A model generated the notes under the pieces. The model saw only the letters and a list, made by a program, of their open reading frames with translations. It was not told where the DNA came from and ran no database searches. From contig JACPEJ010000001.1 in the NCBI GenBank assembly GCA_016183565.1, forward strand, positions 114,257 to 178,256: a stretch of 64,000 nt of DNA. The letters are read 5' to 3'. How positions within the stretch are numbered: the stretch's first letter is position 1; every line of letters begins with the position of its first letter. Position numbers and translations under genes: made by a program. The stretch is from Candidatus Blackburnbacteria bacterium (lineage in GTDB: Bacteria > Patescibacteriota > Microgenomatia > UBA8517 > UBA10165). Positions 58,652 to 64,000 of the stretch are shown one piece after another.

Positions 58652-59500
58652 TTACAGGGCGAGAGCTATACCGAGGAACAGGACTATTGCGCCTGCTATG
58701 GCAAGCATGATGGTTGGTAGGCTGGTTCCGGAGACAGGTAGAGAGTCACCGGATACTGTTGGGGTTACGGTTGTTGCTTTTTTAGTAGGTGTTGGGGTGG
58801 AGGTTGTTTGAGTGCCACCTGCTGGTTTGGTTGTTGGTGTTGGTGTAGTTTGAGTACCCCCACCACCTGATCCGCCAGTTTGGGTGGGGGTTGGAGTGGG
58901 GCTTGCCCCTACGGCTTGAGTAGGAGTGGGGGTTGTGTCTGGTGAGGTGGTGGGTGTTGGGGTTGGCGTTGGTGCAAGGATGGTGATACTTGTGCCAGTT
59001 TTGTTAACTATAATGTCTGTGCTTGCGCCTTCGCCAATTCCCCTACCTTTAGTTTGGGTGCCGAAGTCTACAATGGTAGTACCTGGGGATTTTCCTTTAA
59101 ATTTTAAAGTTGCCAGGATGCCTTCCCCTTGCGGTGGGTTGGCGGGTTGGGCGCCATAAGTAACAGAAGCTGTACCTGTGGTATTGTCTATTGCCGGTTG
59201 TACGAATATATTTGGCAGGAAGGTGCCTGGTGTAATTTCTTTTAATTCTAATTTCTGGGGGTCGAAGGTTATGTGAAGTTCTGCTCCGGTGGTGGTATTT
59301 GTTACAGTGTTCATGTTAACAGAGAGGTCGATTTCATCCCCAACTTTTATAGTATTTGTAGGAGGCAATATTGAAAGTGTACTTGCAGGAGCTGCCTTTT
59401 TCCTCATTTCTTGTTGTCTTTGAACGAGGAATAGACCAGCGACTAAGCCTAGAGCCAAAATAATGAAAATAACGATTCCTATGATTATTTTCTTGTTCAT
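58652..59500 (-). CDS. Cell-surface protein: signal anchor, cohesin-like domain, Thr/Pro-rich linker, C-terminal LPVSG-type sorting signal and TM
   Basis: Cohesin-like ELHITFDPQKLELKEITPG...GEGILATLKFKG...TTIVDFG. TPTPT linker. C-terminal SLPVSGTSLPTIMLAIAGAIVLFLGIALAL. Confidence 0.5.
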   Translation of the reverse strand: MNKKIIIGIVIFIILALGLVAGLFLVQRQQEMRKKAAPASTLSILPPTNTIKVGDEIDLSVNMNTVTNTTTGAELHITFDPQKLELKEITPGTFLPNIFVQPAIDNTTGTASVTYGAQPANPPQGEGILATLKFKGKSPGTTIVDFGTQTKGRGIGEGASTDIIVNKTGTSITILAPTPTPTPTTSPDTTPTPTQAVGASPTPTPTQTGGSGGGGTQTTPTPTTKPAGGTQTTSTPTPTKKATTVTPTVSGDSLPVSGTSLPTIMLAIAGAIVLFLGIALAL

Positions 59501-59546
59501 ATGTAGTTAAAGAGATTTTTTCTCTTCAAAAAGATCTTTTATATAT

Positions 59547-61082: not shown

Positions 61083-61083
61083 G

Positions 61084-64000
61084 TTATTGTTCGCATATTT
61101 TTTCTTTGGGTAAGATTCTTAGTGCAACAAACCACTCGTTGTAATCTAAAAGATTTACAGCTCCGTCGCTATTTATGTCTGATAAAGAACCACTACCTGA
61201 GGCTTCGTTTTTATATTCACTTACCCAAGTATCAAGGTCAGATCTTCCTACACAACCATCCTTGTTTATATCTGCTGCGATAGGGGTGGGTGTGGGAGTT
61301 GGGGTTAGTGTAGGTGTTGGGGTAGGTAGTATCTCTGATTTATTATATCTGGATGTTAGTTTGGAGTCTGAAAATCTTTGCTGCCATTCCCATGCTCCTC
61401 CCTCTTTCTCAAACCTTACTAGGGTATTAGCATTCGAAGGGCCGTACTCCCAATTGTAGTCTAGCAGTAGAAGTCTAGATGGTGATTGACTACCTATCAT
61501 TTCGGAATACAGCTTTGATATTTTTGTTAATGACTTAAGCTCAAGTTTTTGGCCATTACCTTGGTAAGTACTTAAAATCATATCGCTTTGGGCTGTTGCG
61601 AAGCCTATGGTATAAACTTCCCGATTTTCTCCTCCCGTATGTTTGGCTAGCACATCTAATGTATAGTCCATATCTTGGCCTATTGGGTCTTGAAGATTTT
61701 CTAGTTTCTCGTTTAGCACAAAAAGTTCTTGCAACCCACTTAGAATTATTTCTGCTTTAGAATCTCCTAGCACATTAGCTATAATTAACTGAGGAGAAAA
61801 GTCTTGGAACATTTGTGTAGGGAATGTGCGAGTTGCTATTGTGTTGCCTCCACCATCAATTACTCTTAGTATCGATCTTCCACCAAGGAATCCTAAAATA
61901 TCGTTTTGGAATACAAGAATCTCGTCTTTTTGATCACTGTTGATGTCTCCGGTTAGTAAAATAGACTGATAAACGCCATCTGACACCTGAATAGGCCAGC
62001 CAGGAACAGGCTTAGCATTGTTGTTTATTGCTATTAGCGAATGTCCACGATCACCATAAACGTACACTATTATCTCCAGGTTGCCATCGCCATCTAAATC
62101 TGTAAGTAGTGGTTTATCGCTTGCAATGCCTCTTTCGAGAGGTGTGGGGAACCCTGGAAGTTCTACGCCTTCGTTATTGAATACATGAAGCTTTGGTGTT
62201 GGCGCATAGGTTTCTGCATAGATTACCTCATTAATGCCGTCATTGTTTAGGTCCCCCAAGACAGGGTTGGGTTTATTAACGTTGGCTTGTATTCCAACTA
62301 CTGGCCAACCATTAACGGCGGTTCCGTCTGCGTGCCAGGCGACAAGTTGTATGCTTCCATTTGGGTCCATAGCGTCAAGTGAAGTTGCGACTATTTCCAA
62401 ACCTGGATAATTTGGGTCTACTTCTCCTACGGCAAGTTTATAATATAGAATATGGCCCGAGAGTGGGTCTATTCTTTGCGGCCAACCAGGTAGTAGTGTG
62501 CCATCTTGTTTTATGGCTAATACTTCCCAGCCGTTAGTAAGGACCAATTCCTCTTCGCCATCGTTGTTAATATCCGAGGTGGTTATGTTTATAGCTTCTG
62601 TTATTGGGAGCGTTATTTCGCTTAGGTTGGAATCTACTAAGACATTGCGGGTGAGAACTTTCTGTTTACCTGAAGATTCTACAGTTAAGCGGAAGTACAA
62701 GTTCCCTTCAAAGTTATCAGGTGCTCTGAAAACACCTTTTACCAACTCTCCGCTGTCTGTTTCTTGCGGTTCTTGAAGAGTGATACCATCTTGGCTCCAT
62801 GGGCCTTCAGGTAAAGTTGATTGTTCTATTTTTTTTGTATCGCCTTTGATGGTGAAGCTTAGTGTTACATTTTGTGCTACCAAGGCTCCATCTTTAGGTA
62901 TTTCCCACATAGCTGTTGGTAAAGAAGTAGTGTTTGGTTCGCTTAAGGCCCTGCTAGCATTGATTCTTCCCCAGCCGAAATGCATGTCCCATTCGCTCTC
63001 CCCTAAATCATCAGCTGAGTTTTCAAGTATGGCTTCGACTTCCTCGGGTTTTAAGTTTGGTTGTTTTGCAAGAATTAGTGCTGCAAGACCTGCAACGTGT
63101 GGGGAGGCCATAGAGGTTCCACTTGCTTTGCCGTAGGTTCCGCTGGGTATTGTAGACAACACATCAACTCCTGGTGCCGATACATCAACAGTAGAACCCC
63201 AGTTTGAAAAATCTGCGAACTGATCATTTTTATTTGTTGCAGCGACTCCGATTACGTGGTTGCTTGAAGCAGGAAAAAAGTATTCCGAGGATGCGTTCGC
63301 GTTACCGACTGCTGCTACAACAACCACATTATGATCATATGCCTCCATTATTGCCTCTGTGATAAGCTGAGATTCAATAGATCCACCGAGGCTTAAATTA
63401 ATAACTCTAGCACCTTGGTTTACTGCCCAGGAGATTCCTTCAGCTATAGCGTCGGAAGGACATCCCCATCCGGCGCAAACCTTTCCTGGCAGGATCTTGA
63501 CTGACCAGTTTATTCCAACTGCTCCTTTTTTGTTATTCCCAATTGCTCCAATAGTTCCTGCAACATGCGTGCCATGCCCTGTGTCATCGTTAGGGTCATC
63601 GTCATAATTTACGAAGTCTTTTCCGGGCAATAACAAGTTATCTCTTAGATCTTCGTGGGTTGCCTCAACACCAGTGTCAATGACGGCTACTTTAATTTCG
63701 CTAGAGCCAGTGCTTAATGCCCATGCATCTTTAGCTTGGATATTGGAAGGTGCCCACTGTTCTCCGGAGCAATAGTAGGGATCATTGGGTGGTGGAGGAT
63801 TTACGCAATCTGTAGTAGTGGGTGTTGGTTGTATTGTGGGGGTGGCTCCTCCGCCTCCTGCCTTATCTTGGGTTGTGCGATACACATAGACTGGTTCAGC
63901 CCAAGCGACTGTTGGCAGAGAGGTAAATTCTTTTGCGACAAGTAGGGGTTCTGCTTTTGATGTGTAGGATAAAGTTGCAATAGAATCTTGTTCAGTGTCT
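61084..64000 (-). CDS. Subtilisin-like S8 serine peptidase with FG-GAP-like repeats and a C-terminal dockerin; 5' end lies beyond the window
   Basis: D/H/S triad motifs VIDTGV, HGTHVAG, GTSMASPHVAG. FG-GAP-like DINNDGEEELV, DLNNDGINEVI, DLDGDGNLEII. Dockerin DINKDGCVGRSDLDTW and DINSDGAVNLLDYNEW. The reading frame stays open upstream of the ORF-track GTG start (63885) to position 64000, and there is no signal peptide at that start, so the gene is 5'-partial. Confidence 0.75.
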   Translation of the reverse strand, partial: DTEQDSIATLSYTSKAEPLLVAKEFTSLPTVAWAEPVYVYRTTQDKAGGGGATPTIQPTPTTTDCVNPPPPNDPYYCSGEQWAPSNIQAKDAWALSTGSSEIKVAVIDTGVEATHEDLRDNLLLPGKDFVNYDDDPNDDTGHGTHVAGTIGAIGNNKKGAVGINWSVKILPGKVCAGWGCPSDAIAEGISWAVNQGARVINLSLGGSIESQLITEAIMEAYDHNVVVVAAVGNANASSEYFFPASSNHVIGVAATNKNDQFADFSNWGSTVDVSAPGVDVLSTIPSGTYGKASGTSMASPHVAGLAALILAKQPNLKPEEVEAILENSADDLGESEWDMHFGWGRINASRALSEPNTTSLPTAMWEIPKDGALVAQNVTLSFTIKGDTKKIEQSTLPEGPWSQDGITLQEPQETDSGELVKGVFRAPDNFEGNLYFRLTVESSGKQKVLTRNVLVDSNLSEITLPITEAINITTSDINNDGEEELVLTNGWEVLAIKQDGTLLPGWPQRIDPLSGHILYYKLAVGEVDPNYPGLEIVATSLDAMDPNGSIQLVAWHADGTAVNGWPVVGIQANVNKPNPVLGDLNNDGINEVIYAETYAPTPKLHVFNNEGVELPGFPTPLERGIASDKPLLTDLDGDGNLEIIVYVYGDRGHSLIAINNNAKPVPGWPIQVSDGVYQSILLTGDINSDQKDEILVFQNDILGFLGGRSILRVIDGGGNTIATRTFPTQMFQDFSPQLIIANVLGDSKAEIILSGLQELFVLNEKLENLQDPIGQDMDYTLDVLAKHTGGENREVYTIGFATAQSDMILSTYQGNGQKLELKSLTKISKLYSEMIGSQSPSRLLLLDYNWEYGPSNANTLVRFEKEGGAWEWQQRFSDSKLTSRYNKSEILPTPTPTLTPTPTPTPIAADINKDGCVGRSDLDTWVSEYKNEASGSGSLSDINSDGAVNLLDYNEWFVALRILPKEKICEQ

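What the first reader, a model, noticed from the sequence alone, without database searches (positions are those of the whole stretch)
58652..64000. Cohesin-dockerin module set on the cell surface of a CPR-like organism, including a dockerin-bearing S8 protease
Three consecutive secreted proteins carry cohesin-like beta-sandwich signatures. One ends in a sortase-like LPVSG plus TM anchor, another in two canonical dockerin Ca-loops (DxxxDGxxDxxD). The adjacent, window-truncated S8 subtilase combines FG-GAP/VCBS-type repeats with a second dockerin pair (DINSDGAVNLLD). An anchored cohesin scaffold docking a protease and other dockerin proteins would be a non-cellulosomal surface assembly system, plausibly for degrading or gripping host surface polymers. 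The paralogs also share a nearly identical 35-bp stretch of TP-linker-coding DNA (58926-58960 and 60428-60462), a substrate for recombination or domain shuffling.
Basis: partly seen in the sequence, partly recalled or inferred. Interest (0 to 1): 0.65.

Follow-up and report, generated by a model that had tools for sequence, protein, structure and literature searches.

The report
Cohesin-dockerin enzyme-display cassette in a CPR bacterium
A tiny uncultured bacterium (Candidatus Blackburnbacteria) has a four-gene cassette built from the same plug-and-socket protein modules that cellulose-degrading bacteria use, here most likely to hang a protease on its cell surface; the modules are real and the cassette recurs in related bacteria, but this kind of system is already known.

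Summary
On the minus strand sit four tightly packed genes. The first is an S8 subtilase with FG-GAP repeats and a C-terminal dockerin, cut by the window end (full length 1099 aa). The second, P3, has a cohesin-like domain, a TP linker and a dockerin. The third, P2, is a small cohesin. The fourth, P1, has a cohesin, a TP linker, LPVSG and a transmembrane tail. Pfam recognises the cohesins of P1 and P2. P3's N-terminal domain is missed by Pfam, but its model matches solved cohesins. Both dockerins sit at the Pfam threshold; NCBIfam (P3) and a model matching solved dockerins (S8) back them. Identical proteins are deposited as hypothetical proteins of a Candidatus Blackburnbacteria MAG (Microgenomates, CPR). 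Cohesin genes next to genes for dockerin-bearing enzymes recur in Gottesmanbacteria and in groundwater and lake metagenomes: 9 of 16 cohesin loci carry dockerin ORFs, against 0 of 26 control loci. The best reading is a minimal, non-cellulosomal display system of anchor, adaptor and protease. Binding itself is untested. Non-cellulosomal cohesin-dockerin pairs, dockerin-bearing proteases and cohesin/dockerin genes in Microgenomates have all been reported, so this is a new member of a known kind. A side finding is a conserved N-terminal leader ([QR]QQ[ED][IL]RxxA) paired with LPXTG-like tails.

The parts
61084..64000 (-). S8 subtilase gene, cut by the window end. The first 128 codons, covering the leader and most of the prodomain, lie outside the window. 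Full length is 1099 aa (MBI2267997.1).
   Evidence: Peptidase_S8 scores 217 bits. The frame is open to base 63999. The full gene is L001:66-3365. Its NCBI name is given.
62968..63702 (-). S8 catalytic domain, with triad motifs VAVIDTG (63670-63690), HGTHVAG (63556-63576) and GTSMASP (63100-63120).
   Evidence: Pfam stretch 62-306 of the 933-aa ORF; motif coordinates.
61918..62574 (-). FG-GAP / FG-GAP_3 repeat region. Four clear DxNxDG...E loops suggest a beta-propeller.
   Evidence: FG-GAP_3 scores 53.7 bits and FG-GAP 38.1 bits; loop coordinates.
61282..61329 (-). TP linker upstream of the S8 dockerin.
   Evidence: Sequence LPTPTPTLTPTPTPTP.
61111..61275 (-). S8 C-terminal dockerin: two Ca loops (DINKDGCVGRSD, DINSDGAVNLLD), each followed by a helix.
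60153..61082 (-). P3 (309 aa, MBI2267996.1): leader, cohesin-like domain, TP linker and dockerin. Candidate adaptor. Its start codon lies 1 nt after the S8 stop codon.
60522..60947 (-). P3 cohesin-like beta-sandwich (residues 46-187).
   Evidence: No Pfam hit. 32% identity to P1. The AF2 model's top 43 PDB hits are cohesins.
60168..60332 (-). P3 dockerin (residues 251-305).
   Evidence: Dockerin_1 scores 23.0 bits in isolation. NCBIfam dockerin_GC scores 32.1 bits against a cutoff of 29. PDB 2y3n_B dockerin matches at E=3.9e-4.
59547..60116 (-). P2, a small single-cohesin protein with an N-terminal hydrophobic segment and no linker or tail. It is 184 aa from the ATG at 60101 in the NCBI record MBI2267995.1, or 189 aa from the TTG.
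   Evidence: Pfam Cohesin scores 35.2 bits. Counterparts of 183-198 aa occupy the same position in L004, L009, L011, L012 and L017.
58652..59500 (-). P1 (282 aa, MBI2267994.1): leader, cohesin (59009-59359), TP/G-rich linker (58742-58975), LPVSG (58727-58741) and hydrophobic tail (58655-58726). Candidate anchoring cohesin.
   Evidence: Pfam Cohesin scores 48.8 bits. Motif coordinates. Relatives end in LPVTG, LPETG, LPDTG or IPVTG plus a TM segment.
58932..58957 (.). Copy 1 of the exact 26-nt shared linker DNA, in P1.
60433..60458 (.). Copy 2 of the exact 26-nt shared linker DNA, in P3.
53678..58626 (-). Three co-oriented downstream genes, abutting or overlapping: FAD amine oxidase family (57343-58626), a PMT_2-like membrane protein (55713-57359) and DUF2298 (53678-55723). 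They are probably co-transcribed. Whether they belong to the system is not shown.
   Evidence: Pfam results. No terminator-like site on the minus strand before 53371-53352. The same oxidase and membrane protein follow the cohesin genes in L011. A similar set lies about 7 kb away in L009/L010.

Best explanation
This is a minimal, non-cellulosomal cohesin-dockerin display system of a Microgenomates (CPR) bacterium. The genes are so tightly spaced that a single operon is likely.

Shown:
- P1, P2 and the N-terminal half of P3 are cohesin modules.
- The C-termini of P3 and of the S8 protease are dockerin modules, of two clearly different sequence types.
- The S8 protease, P3 and P1 start with a clade-typical hydrophobic leader; P2 has a degenerate form of it.
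- P1 ends in an LPXTG-like signal plus a transmembrane segment.
- Cohesin genes next to genes for dockerin-bearing hydrolases recur in other CPR genomes.

Inferred:
- The proteins are exported.
- P1 is held at the envelope by its C-terminal signal, either by sortase-type attachment to peptidoglycan or simply as a membrane tail anchor.
- P3 acts as an adaptor, its dockerin plugging into P1 or P2 and its cohesin receiving the divergent dockerin of the protease.
- The active S8 protease, with its FG-GAP propeller, is thereby held on long Thr/Pro linkers at the cell surface.
- There it digests extracellular or host-surface protein for an organism that, like other CPR bacteria, probably depends on scavenged building blocks.
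For: Module identity:
- Pfam Cohesin hits for P1 and P2.
- Cohesin fold for the P3 model.
- P3 aligns to P1 at E=2e-5.
- Dockerin_1 at threshold for both C-termini.
- NCBIfam dockerin_GC above its cutoff for P3.
- A leave-one-out dockerin HMM hits the S8 C-terminus at E=5e-10.

Active protease: the Asp, His and Ser motifs are all present.

Operon: 1 nt separates the S8 stop from the P3 start, later gaps are about 25-50 nt or overlaps, and no terminator-like site occurs on the minus strand before 53371-53352.

Conserved cassette:
- L004 (Gottesmanbacteria) has sulfatase-dockerin twice, FG-GAP-dockerin, a 497-aa dockerin protein, then cohesin-dockerin, a small cohesin and a third cohesin.
- L009 has CARDB-dockerin, a small cohesin and cohesin-LPEAG-TM.
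- L011, L012, L017, L021 and L027 show the same theme.
- 9 of 16 non-redundant cohesin loci carry dockerin ORFs, against 0 of 26 leader-only loci from similar sources (p=2.6e-5). Excluding loci found through dockerin-bearing queries gives 6 of 13 against 0 of 26 (p=5e-4).

Anchor: relatives of P1 carry LPVTG, LPETG, LPDTG or IPVTG at the same place. FemAB and LCP cell-wall genes lie 6-11 kb away.
Against: - No cohesin-dockerin binding was tested or modelled; the tools offer no multimer prediction.
- Which dockerin fits which cohesin is a guess based on architecture.
- Both dockerins only reach the Pfam threshold when scanned as isolated fragments.
- Pfam does not recognise P3's cohesin.
- The alignments used for both AF2 models were built from cohesin- or dockerin-family sequences, so the fold tests are not independent of the sequence similarity.
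- P1's tail lacks the basic residues of a canonical sortase signal. The motif is LPVSG rather than LPXTG. No sortase was found in the window or in any fetched locus.
- It is unknown whether the N-terminal leaders are cleaved. If they are not, every component is membrane-tethered on its own, and docking would serve clustering rather than attachment.
Confidence: 0.62

Rival explanations
1. These are independent surface proteins that share common building blocks. On this view the cohesin-like sandwiches act as stalk or adhesin domains. The dockerin-like EF-hand pairs act as Ca-stabilised C-terminal modules, or bind something other than the neighbouring cohesins, such as glycan or wall polymer. 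No complex forms.
For: Dockerin scores sit at threshold. Each protein has its own leader and could reach the surface alone. The leader and LPXTG-like tail also occur on many non-cohesin proteins, so they are general sorting signals and not system-specific. Cohesin-like modules are very common: the profile finds 13,826 representative clusters.
Against: Dockerin ORFs are strongly enriched next to cohesin genes and absent from 222 kb of control loci. Several lineages keep cohesin-dockerin fusion proteins of the adaptor type (P3, P0022, P0004). Every solved dockerin matched by the model comes from a cohesin-binding system.
Confidence: 0.15
2. It is a true cellulosome-like polysaccharide-degrading complex. 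That is how cohesin/dockerin genes in Microgenomates were read in the literature.
For: PMC9123182 reads expressed cohesin and dockerin genes of Cand. Shapirobacterales as a cellulosome. In relatives, dockerins sit on a glycosyl-hydrolase catalytic core (L012), a polysaccharide-lyase-like region (L021) and sulfatases (L004).
Against: In this locus the only enzyme cargo is a protease. There is no carbohydrate-binding module, no multi-cohesin scaffoldin and no glycoside hydrolase among the four genes. No other dockerin ORF occurs in the 64 kb.
Confidence: 0.08
3. It is a cell-cell adhesion device acting in trans. Cohesins on the CPR cell would bind dockerins on sister cells or a host, or the reverse, holding an episymbiont to its partner. 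The protease would be incidental.
For: Dockerin/cohesin proteins have been proposed to mediate contacts in ANME consortia (PMC9012536). A dockerin-domain protein is essential in an epibiotic Saccharibacterium (PMC10633639). CPR bacteria are commonly episymbionts (general knowledge).
Against: Both partners are encoded side by side in one probable operon, and the arrangement is conserved. That fits assembly on the producing cell. Nothing here bears on a host.
Confidence: 0.1

Closest known systems
Ruminococcus flavefaciens ScaE-type anchoring: a single cohesin with a sortase signal, within a cellulosome that uses adaptor scaffoldins
   Same: A single-cohesin protein with an LPXTG-type C-terminal signal anchors the assembly. 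Adaptor proteins carry both a cohesin and a dockerin. Enzymes carry C-terminal dockerins. Thr/Pro-rich linkers connect the modules. The ScaE cohesin (PDB 2zf9) is among the structural matches of the P3 model.
   Different: There is no multi-cohesin scaffoldin, no carbohydrate-binding module and no glycoside hydrolase here; the cargo is an S8 protease. The tail is LPVSG without basic residues. The host is a CPR bacterium with a small genome; the contig is 686 kb. That ScaE is attached by sortase is from my own knowledge and was not tested here.
Non-cellulosomal cohesin-dockerin pairs (Archaeoglobus fulgidus; Clostridium perfringens NagH/NagJ; survey of Peer et al. 2009, cited in PMC9012536)
   Same: Single cohesins and dockerins occur on non-cellulolytic proteins, in organisms that do not degrade cellulose. 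The A. fulgidus cohesin 2xdh ranks 8th for the P3 model. The C. perfringens dockerin 2ozn_B ranks 2nd for the S8 dockerin model.
   Different: Here the modules form a conserved multi-gene cassette with distinct anchor, small and adaptor cohesin types, in the Microgenomates lineage.
Dockerin-bearing serine protease of Clostridium (Acetivibrio) thermocellum, Clo1313_0689 (PDB 8x39)
   Different: The clostridial protein has a double dockerin and belongs to a cellulosome producer. The present one has a single dockerin and an FG-GAP propeller, and it lies directly upstream of its candidate cohesin partners.
Cohesin and dockerin genes reported in Cand. Shapirobacterales (Microgenomates), ISME J 2022, PMC9123182
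   Same: Same CPR supergroup. Cohesin- and dockerin-domain genes are present there and are expressed.
   Different: That report reads them as a cellulosome and, in the passage read, gives no locus architecture. Here the cargo is a protease, and the cassette structure, the anchor signal and the conservation across loci are described.

Membership tests
Cohesin module (Pfam PF00963) | Profile match at or above the curated gathering score | tested here: met
   P1 scores 48.8 bits and P2 scores 35.2 bits against a gathering score of 24.1. P3's N-terminal domain is not met: it has no hit at E<=10.
Cohesin module (Pfam PF00963) | Nine-stranded beta-sandwich (jelly-roll) fold, tested for the P3 N-terminal domain | tested here: met
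   The AF2 model has mean pLDDT 73.7 and strands over residues 46-187. The top 43 Foldseek PDB hits are all cohesins, with E down to 7.5e-9 and target-normalised TM mostly 0.6-0.8. Caveat: the alignment contained clear cohesins.
Cohesin module (Pfam PF00963) | Binds a dockerin | not testable with these tools
   No multimer prediction or experiment is available.
Dockerin module (Pfam PF00404) | Profile match at or above the curated gathering score | tested here: inconclusive
   P3 scores 19.8 bits in the full protein and 23.0 bits as a fragment. The S8 C-terminus has no hit in the full protein and scores 22.9 bits as a fragment. The gathering score is 22.9. NCBIfam dockerin_GC scores 32.1 bits for P3 against a cutoff of 29.
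Dockerin module (Pfam PF00404) | Tandem duplicated segment, each an EF-hand-like Ca loop (D-x-[ND]-x-D-G ... D at position 12) followed by a helix | tested here: met
   Loops start 31 residues apart in both proteins. The helices are 261-271 and 292-298 in P3, and 18-29 and 49-61 in the S8 fragment.
Dockerin module (Pfam PF00404) | Dockerin fold, tested for the S8 C-terminus | tested here: met
Cellulosome | Scaffoldin with several cohesins and a carbohydrate-binding module, plus dockerin-bearing glycoside hydrolases | tested here: not met
   Each protein has one cohesin. No CBM or GH was found in the four genes, and there is no further dockerin in the window. I therefore do not file it as a cellulosome.
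Sortase substrate (LPXTG cell-wall sorting signal) | LPXTG pentapeptide near the C-terminus | tested here: inconclusive
   P1 has LPVSG, with Ser in place of Thr. Relatives at the same position have LPVTG, LPETG, LPDTG, IPVTG or LPVAG. No NCBIfam LPXTG-anchor hit at E<=1.
Sortase substrate (LPXTG cell-wall sorting signal) | Hydrophobic segment followed by a positively charged tail | tested here: not met
   The hydrophobic segment is present, but the protein ends ...GIALAL with no Arg or Lys. Most relatives also lack a basic tail.
Sortase substrate (LPXTG cell-wall sorting signal) | A sortase encoded in the genome | not testable with these tools
   None was found in the 64-kb window or the fetched loci, using phmmer with a S. 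aureus SrtA sequence written from memory and a TLxTC motif search. The rest of the 686-kb genome could not be read.
Subtilase (peptidase family S8) | Profile match and the Asp/His/Ser catalytic motifs | tested here: met
   Peptidase_S8 scores 217 bits. The motifs VAVIDTG, HGTHVAG and GTSMASP are present.

The most novel reading that the evidence does not exclude
Microgenomates and related CPR bacteria may use a dedicated surface-display route that has not been described. It would have three elements. The first is a clade-specific N-terminal leader: a hydrophobic segment ending in AGVxLV, followed by [QR]QQ[ED][IL]R[EK][KQ]A. The second is an LPXTG-like tail without a basic end. The third is a conserved three-cohesin cassette of anchor, small and adaptor types that arms the cell with interchangeable dockerin-tagged hydrolases: protease here, and sulfatases, a glycosidase and a lyase-like protein in relatives. 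Such a system would be the feeding or attachment interface of these episymbionts.
Probability: 0.25. Interest if true: 0.65.

Novelty: new member of a known kind. Interest (0 to 1): 0.4.

Why it matters
CPR bacteria have small genomes and are thought to live off other cells. How they organise their surface enzymes is poorly known. A conserved, compact cohesin-dockerin cassette gives a concrete and testable model for how they hold hydrolases at the cell surface. It also corrects the tendency to read any cohesin or dockerin gene in these genomes as a cellulosome. The three cohesin proteins are deposited only as 'hypothetical protein', so the annotation can be improved. The shared leader and tail motifs could serve to predict the surface proteome of these lineages.

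Tried and rejected
- A profile search of the 5.8-billion-protein collection with the seven-sequence cohesin alignment A1 returned only five hits and added little. The exhaustive representative search with the same profile found 13,826 clusters but carries no names.
The four-sequence version (A4) worked.
- I tried to read upstream of the S8 gene. 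L001, the one contig shown, starts 65 nt before the S8 start; the three similar contigs were not shown.
- I looked for a sortase using phmmer with S. aureus SrtA, written from memory, and a TLxTC motif search. Nothing turned up in the window or in any locus. This is a weak test for divergent CPR sortases.
- The review by Peer et al. 2009 is not held in the library.
- A literature string search for the leader motif found nothing relevant.
- I considered whether the dockerin loops are merely stray FG-GAP or EF-hand motifs and rejected it. The fold search ranks eight dockerins far above everything else, and the loops occur as a C-terminal pair behind a TP linker, as they do in the neighbouring P3.
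- I considered the cellulosome reading and rejected it for this locus (see the membership test).

Full report
**What is there.** The last 5.3 kb of the window carries four genes on the minus strand.
- The first is an S8 subtilase, running from 61084 past the window end. Its frame is open to base 63999, so the window truncates it. An identical metagenome contig, L001, gives the full 1099-aa protein.
- One base after its TAA stop comes the ATG of P3 (60153-61082, 309 aa).
- P2 follows (59547-60116; 184 aa from the ATG used in the public record).
- P1 follows (58652-59500, 282 aa).
- Three more co-oriented genes abut or overlap downstream: an FAD amine-oxidase family protein, a 548-aa membrane protein with a weak PMT_2 match, and a DUF2298 membrane protein.
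- The simple terminator scan finds no terminator-like site on this strand until 53371-53352, beyond DUF2298. A single seven-gene transcript is therefore plausible but not shown.

**Source organism.** Identical proteins are deposited as MBI2267994.1 to MBI2267997.1 of a Candidatus Blackburnbacteria MAG, on a 686-kb contig. The three cohesin proteins are named 'hypothetical protein' and the fourth 'S8 family serine peptidase'. Blackburnbacteria belong to the Microgenomates group of the Patescibacteria/CPR.

**Cohesins.**
- Pfam Cohesin matches P1 (48.8 bits) and P2 (35.2 bits), both above the gathering score of 24.1.
- P3's N-terminal 190 residues get no Pfam hit even at E<=10.
- P3 nevertheless aligns to P1 at 32% identity over 184 residues, with pairwise E=2e-5. 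It also aligns column for column with other cohesins of this clade.
- An AF2 model of P3 (mean pLDDT 73.7) has a beta-sandwich over residues 46-187.
- The top 43 Foldseek hits of that model in the PDB are all cohesin modules. They include type I, II and III cellulosomal cohesins and the non-cellulosomal Archaeoglobus cohesin 2xdh.
- The alignment that guided the model contained clear cohesins, so this test is not fully independent of the sequence similarity.

**Dockerins.**
- P3 ends in two EF-hand-like loops 31 residues apart, DITEDGIVDLDD and DFTKDGKVDLDD, each followed by a helix.
- Dockerin_1 scores 19.8 bits in the whole P3 protein and 23.0 bits on the fragment, against a gathering score of 22.9.
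- For P3, NCBIfam dockerin_GC scores 32.1 bits against a cutoff of 29. The solved dockerin 2y3n_B matches by sequence at E=3.9e-4.
- The S8 protein ends, after a TP linker, in DINKDGCVGRSD and DINSDGAVNLLD with the same spacing.
- Pfam reaches exactly 22.9 bits for the S8 C-terminus, and only on the fragment.
- A dockerin HMM built from the CPR dockerins found here, leaving out the S8 sequence, hits the S8 C-terminus at E=5e-10 among 165 window ORFs. Leaving out P3 and its close relatives as well still gives 3.9e-9.
- An AF2 model of the last 70 residues has pLDDT 88.9 and two loop-helix units.
- The two dockerins differ markedly in sequence, which suggests different cohesin partners.
- No other cohesin or dockerin ORF exists in the 64 kb.

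**The protease.** Peptidase_S8 scores 217 bits. The Asp, His and Ser motifs are intact. FG-GAP and FG-GAP_3 repeats, with four clear Ca-loop-like motifs, follow the catalytic domain. S8 proteins with FG-GAP repeats are widespread. Some homologues carry Pfam Dockerin_1, so the combination is not unusual.

**Anchor and leader.**
- P1 ends in LPVSG plus 24 mostly hydrophobic residues and has no basic tail.
- Relatives with the same architecture carry LPVTG, LPVAG, LPETG, LPDTG or IPVTG at that place. The motif is thus an LPXTG-type signal in which P1 has Ser for Thr.
- A canonical sortase signal also has a basic tail, and that is missing.
- No sortase was detected in the window or in the fetched loci, by admittedly weak tests.
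- S8, P3 and P1 share an N-terminal leader: a hydrophobic stretch followed by HELRKKA, QDLRKQA or QEMRKKA. P2 has a degenerate version.
- The metagenome scan happened to use this leader as a search pattern. It returned more than twenty loci in which it precedes non-cohesin proteins, many of which also end in the LPXTG-like tail.
- The leader and tail are therefore general sorting signals of these lineages and not parts of the cohesin system.
- No Pfam or NCBIfam model matched the leader, and a literature string search found nothing.

**Conservation of the cassette.**
- In a Gottesmanbacteria MAG (L004), four to five dockerin-bearing proteins come first: two sulfatases, an FG-GAP protein and a 497-aa protein.
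- They are followed in L004 by a cohesin-dockerin protein (P0022), a 190-aa cohesin and a 279-aa cohesin. This is the same order as P3, P2 and P1.
- L009/L010 have a CARDB-dockerin protein, a 198-aa cohesin and a cohesin ending in LPEAG plus a TM segment.
- L011, from a Patescibacteria MAG, has a small cohesin, a cohesin ending in IPVAG plus a TM segment, and a 515-aa protein. That protein's dockerin is 61% identical to P3's.
- In L011 these genes are followed by the same oxidase and membrane-protein genes as in the window.
- L012 (another Gottesmanbacteria MAG) has a glycosyl-hydrolase-core protein with a dockerin and a cohesin protein ending in a dockerin-like sequence. On the other strand it has a small cohesin and a cohesin ending in MPVTG plus a TM segment.
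- L017, L021 and L027 repeat the theme.
- With a dockerin HMM built without the window sequences, 9 of 16 non-redundant cohesin loci (135 kb) carry dockerin ORFs, 17 in all.
- That compares with 0 of 26 leader-only loci (222 kb) from similar samples, Fisher p=2.6e-5.
- Dropping the loci that had been found through dockerin-bearing queries leaves 6 of 13 against 0 of 26, p=5e-4.
- This linkage is the strongest argument that the dockerins and cohesins work together.

**How it most likely works.**
- The architecture mirrors the anchor, adaptor and enzyme logic of cellulosomes in minimal form.
- P1 would be the anchoring cohesin, P3 the adaptor, and the S8 protease the cargo. P2 would be a second, membrane-proximal or free cohesin.
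- The cargo families seen in relatives are sulfatase, glycosidase core, lyase-like, CARDB and FG-GAP proteins. They point to a general exo-enzyme display system and not to a cellulose machine.
- Every step after 'the modules are present and genetically linked' is inference.

**The shared linker DNA.** The exact match is 26 nt (58932-58957 and 60433-60458), within a 37-nt stretch that has two mismatches. No codon- or dicodon-shuffled pair of the two linkers reached 26 nt; the maximum was 20 in 1000 shuffles of each kind. The stretch is therefore more than compositional chance, and it fits common descent or gene conversion between the P1 and P3 linkers. Nothing shows that it has a function.

**Comparison with what is known.**
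- Cohesin and dockerin modules outside cellulosomes are documented in bacteria and archaea. The source is Peer et al. 2009, as cited and summarised in PMC9012536; the review itself is not held.
- A dockerin-bearing serine protease of C. thermocellum has a solved double dockerin (8x39).
- Expressed cohesin and dockerin genes have been reported in Cand. Shapirobacterales, another Microgenomates lineage, and read there as a cellulosome (PMC9123182).
- A dockerin-domain protein is essential in a cultivated Saccharibacterium (PMC10633639).
- The locus fails the defining features of a cellulosome: it has no multi-cohesin scaffoldin, no CBM and no glycoside hydrolase. It is best filed as a non-cellulosomal cohesin-dockerin system, a new member of a known kind.

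**Verdict.** It is untested on binding, on sortase anchoring and on any host-directed role, and it is less novel than suggested. Interest 0.4.

Noticed in passing
window 59393-59422 (P1), 60963-60992 (P3); L001:66-230 (S8 N-terminus); loci L022, L024-L026, L028-L049: A conserved N-terminal leader is found on cohesin proteins, the S8 protease and many unrelated, often Cys-rich, proteins in CPR-type metagenome contigs. It has a basic start, about 20 hydrophobic residues ending in AGVxLV, then [QR]QQ[ED][ILM]R[EK][KQ]A. It is frequently paired with a C-terminal [LI]Px[TA]G-xx-xP[TS] motif plus a TM tail without basic residues. No Pfam or NCBIfam model matched the leader, and no paper was found by string search.
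   Followed up: partly
window 53678-58626 (minus strand): An FAD amine-oxidase family gene, a PMT_2-like 548-aa membrane protein and DUF2298 directly follow the cohesin genes, with overlapping or 25-nt junctions. Homologous oxidase and membrane-protein genes follow the cohesins in L011. An oxidase, UbiA and PMT_2 set lies about 7 kb from them in L009/L010, and glycosyltransferase genes follow them in L004. They may synthesise a lipid-linked sugar and glycosylate the Thr/Pro linkers or the wall.
   Followed up: partly
window 47600-49558 and 51468-52604: Two FemAB-family genes and a LytR_cpsA_psr (LCP) gene lie 6-11 kb from P1. They indicate a Gram-positive-type wall with peptide bridges and attached glycopolymers, which is the usual acceptor context for sortase substrates.
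   Followed up: no
window 12626-14234 and 8555-8918: A cluster of six tRNA genes holds four tRNA-Ser with different anticodons and two tRNA-Arg. A tmRNA gene encodes the tag GEDKTYAPAFEYAYAA.
   Followed up: no
window 44718-47603 and 49601-51490: There are two UvrD-type helicase genes. One is fused to a PD-(D/E)XK nuclease domain (AddA/AddB-like). They flank the FemAB genes.
   Followed up: no
L004:983-3018: In the Gottesmanbacteria locus the first sulfatase gene (578 aa) stops just before a separate 94-aa dockerin ORF, while the next sulfatase carries its dockerin in frame. The first may be a frameshifted sulfatase-dockerin gene or an assembly error.
   Followed up: no
L001:1-65: L001, the one contig shown for the S8 gene, starts 65 nt upstream of the S8 start. 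The three similar contigs were not displayed, so what precedes the cassette could not be seen. In L004 that position holds further dockerin-bearing enzymes.
   Followed up: partly
L021:244-3928: A metagenome contig encodes proteins that combine cohesin and dockerin modules in other orders. One has cohesin, dockerin and a polysaccharide-lyase-like region. Another has two cohesins followed by a dockerin. The module set is evidently shuffled among these lineages.
   Followed up: no
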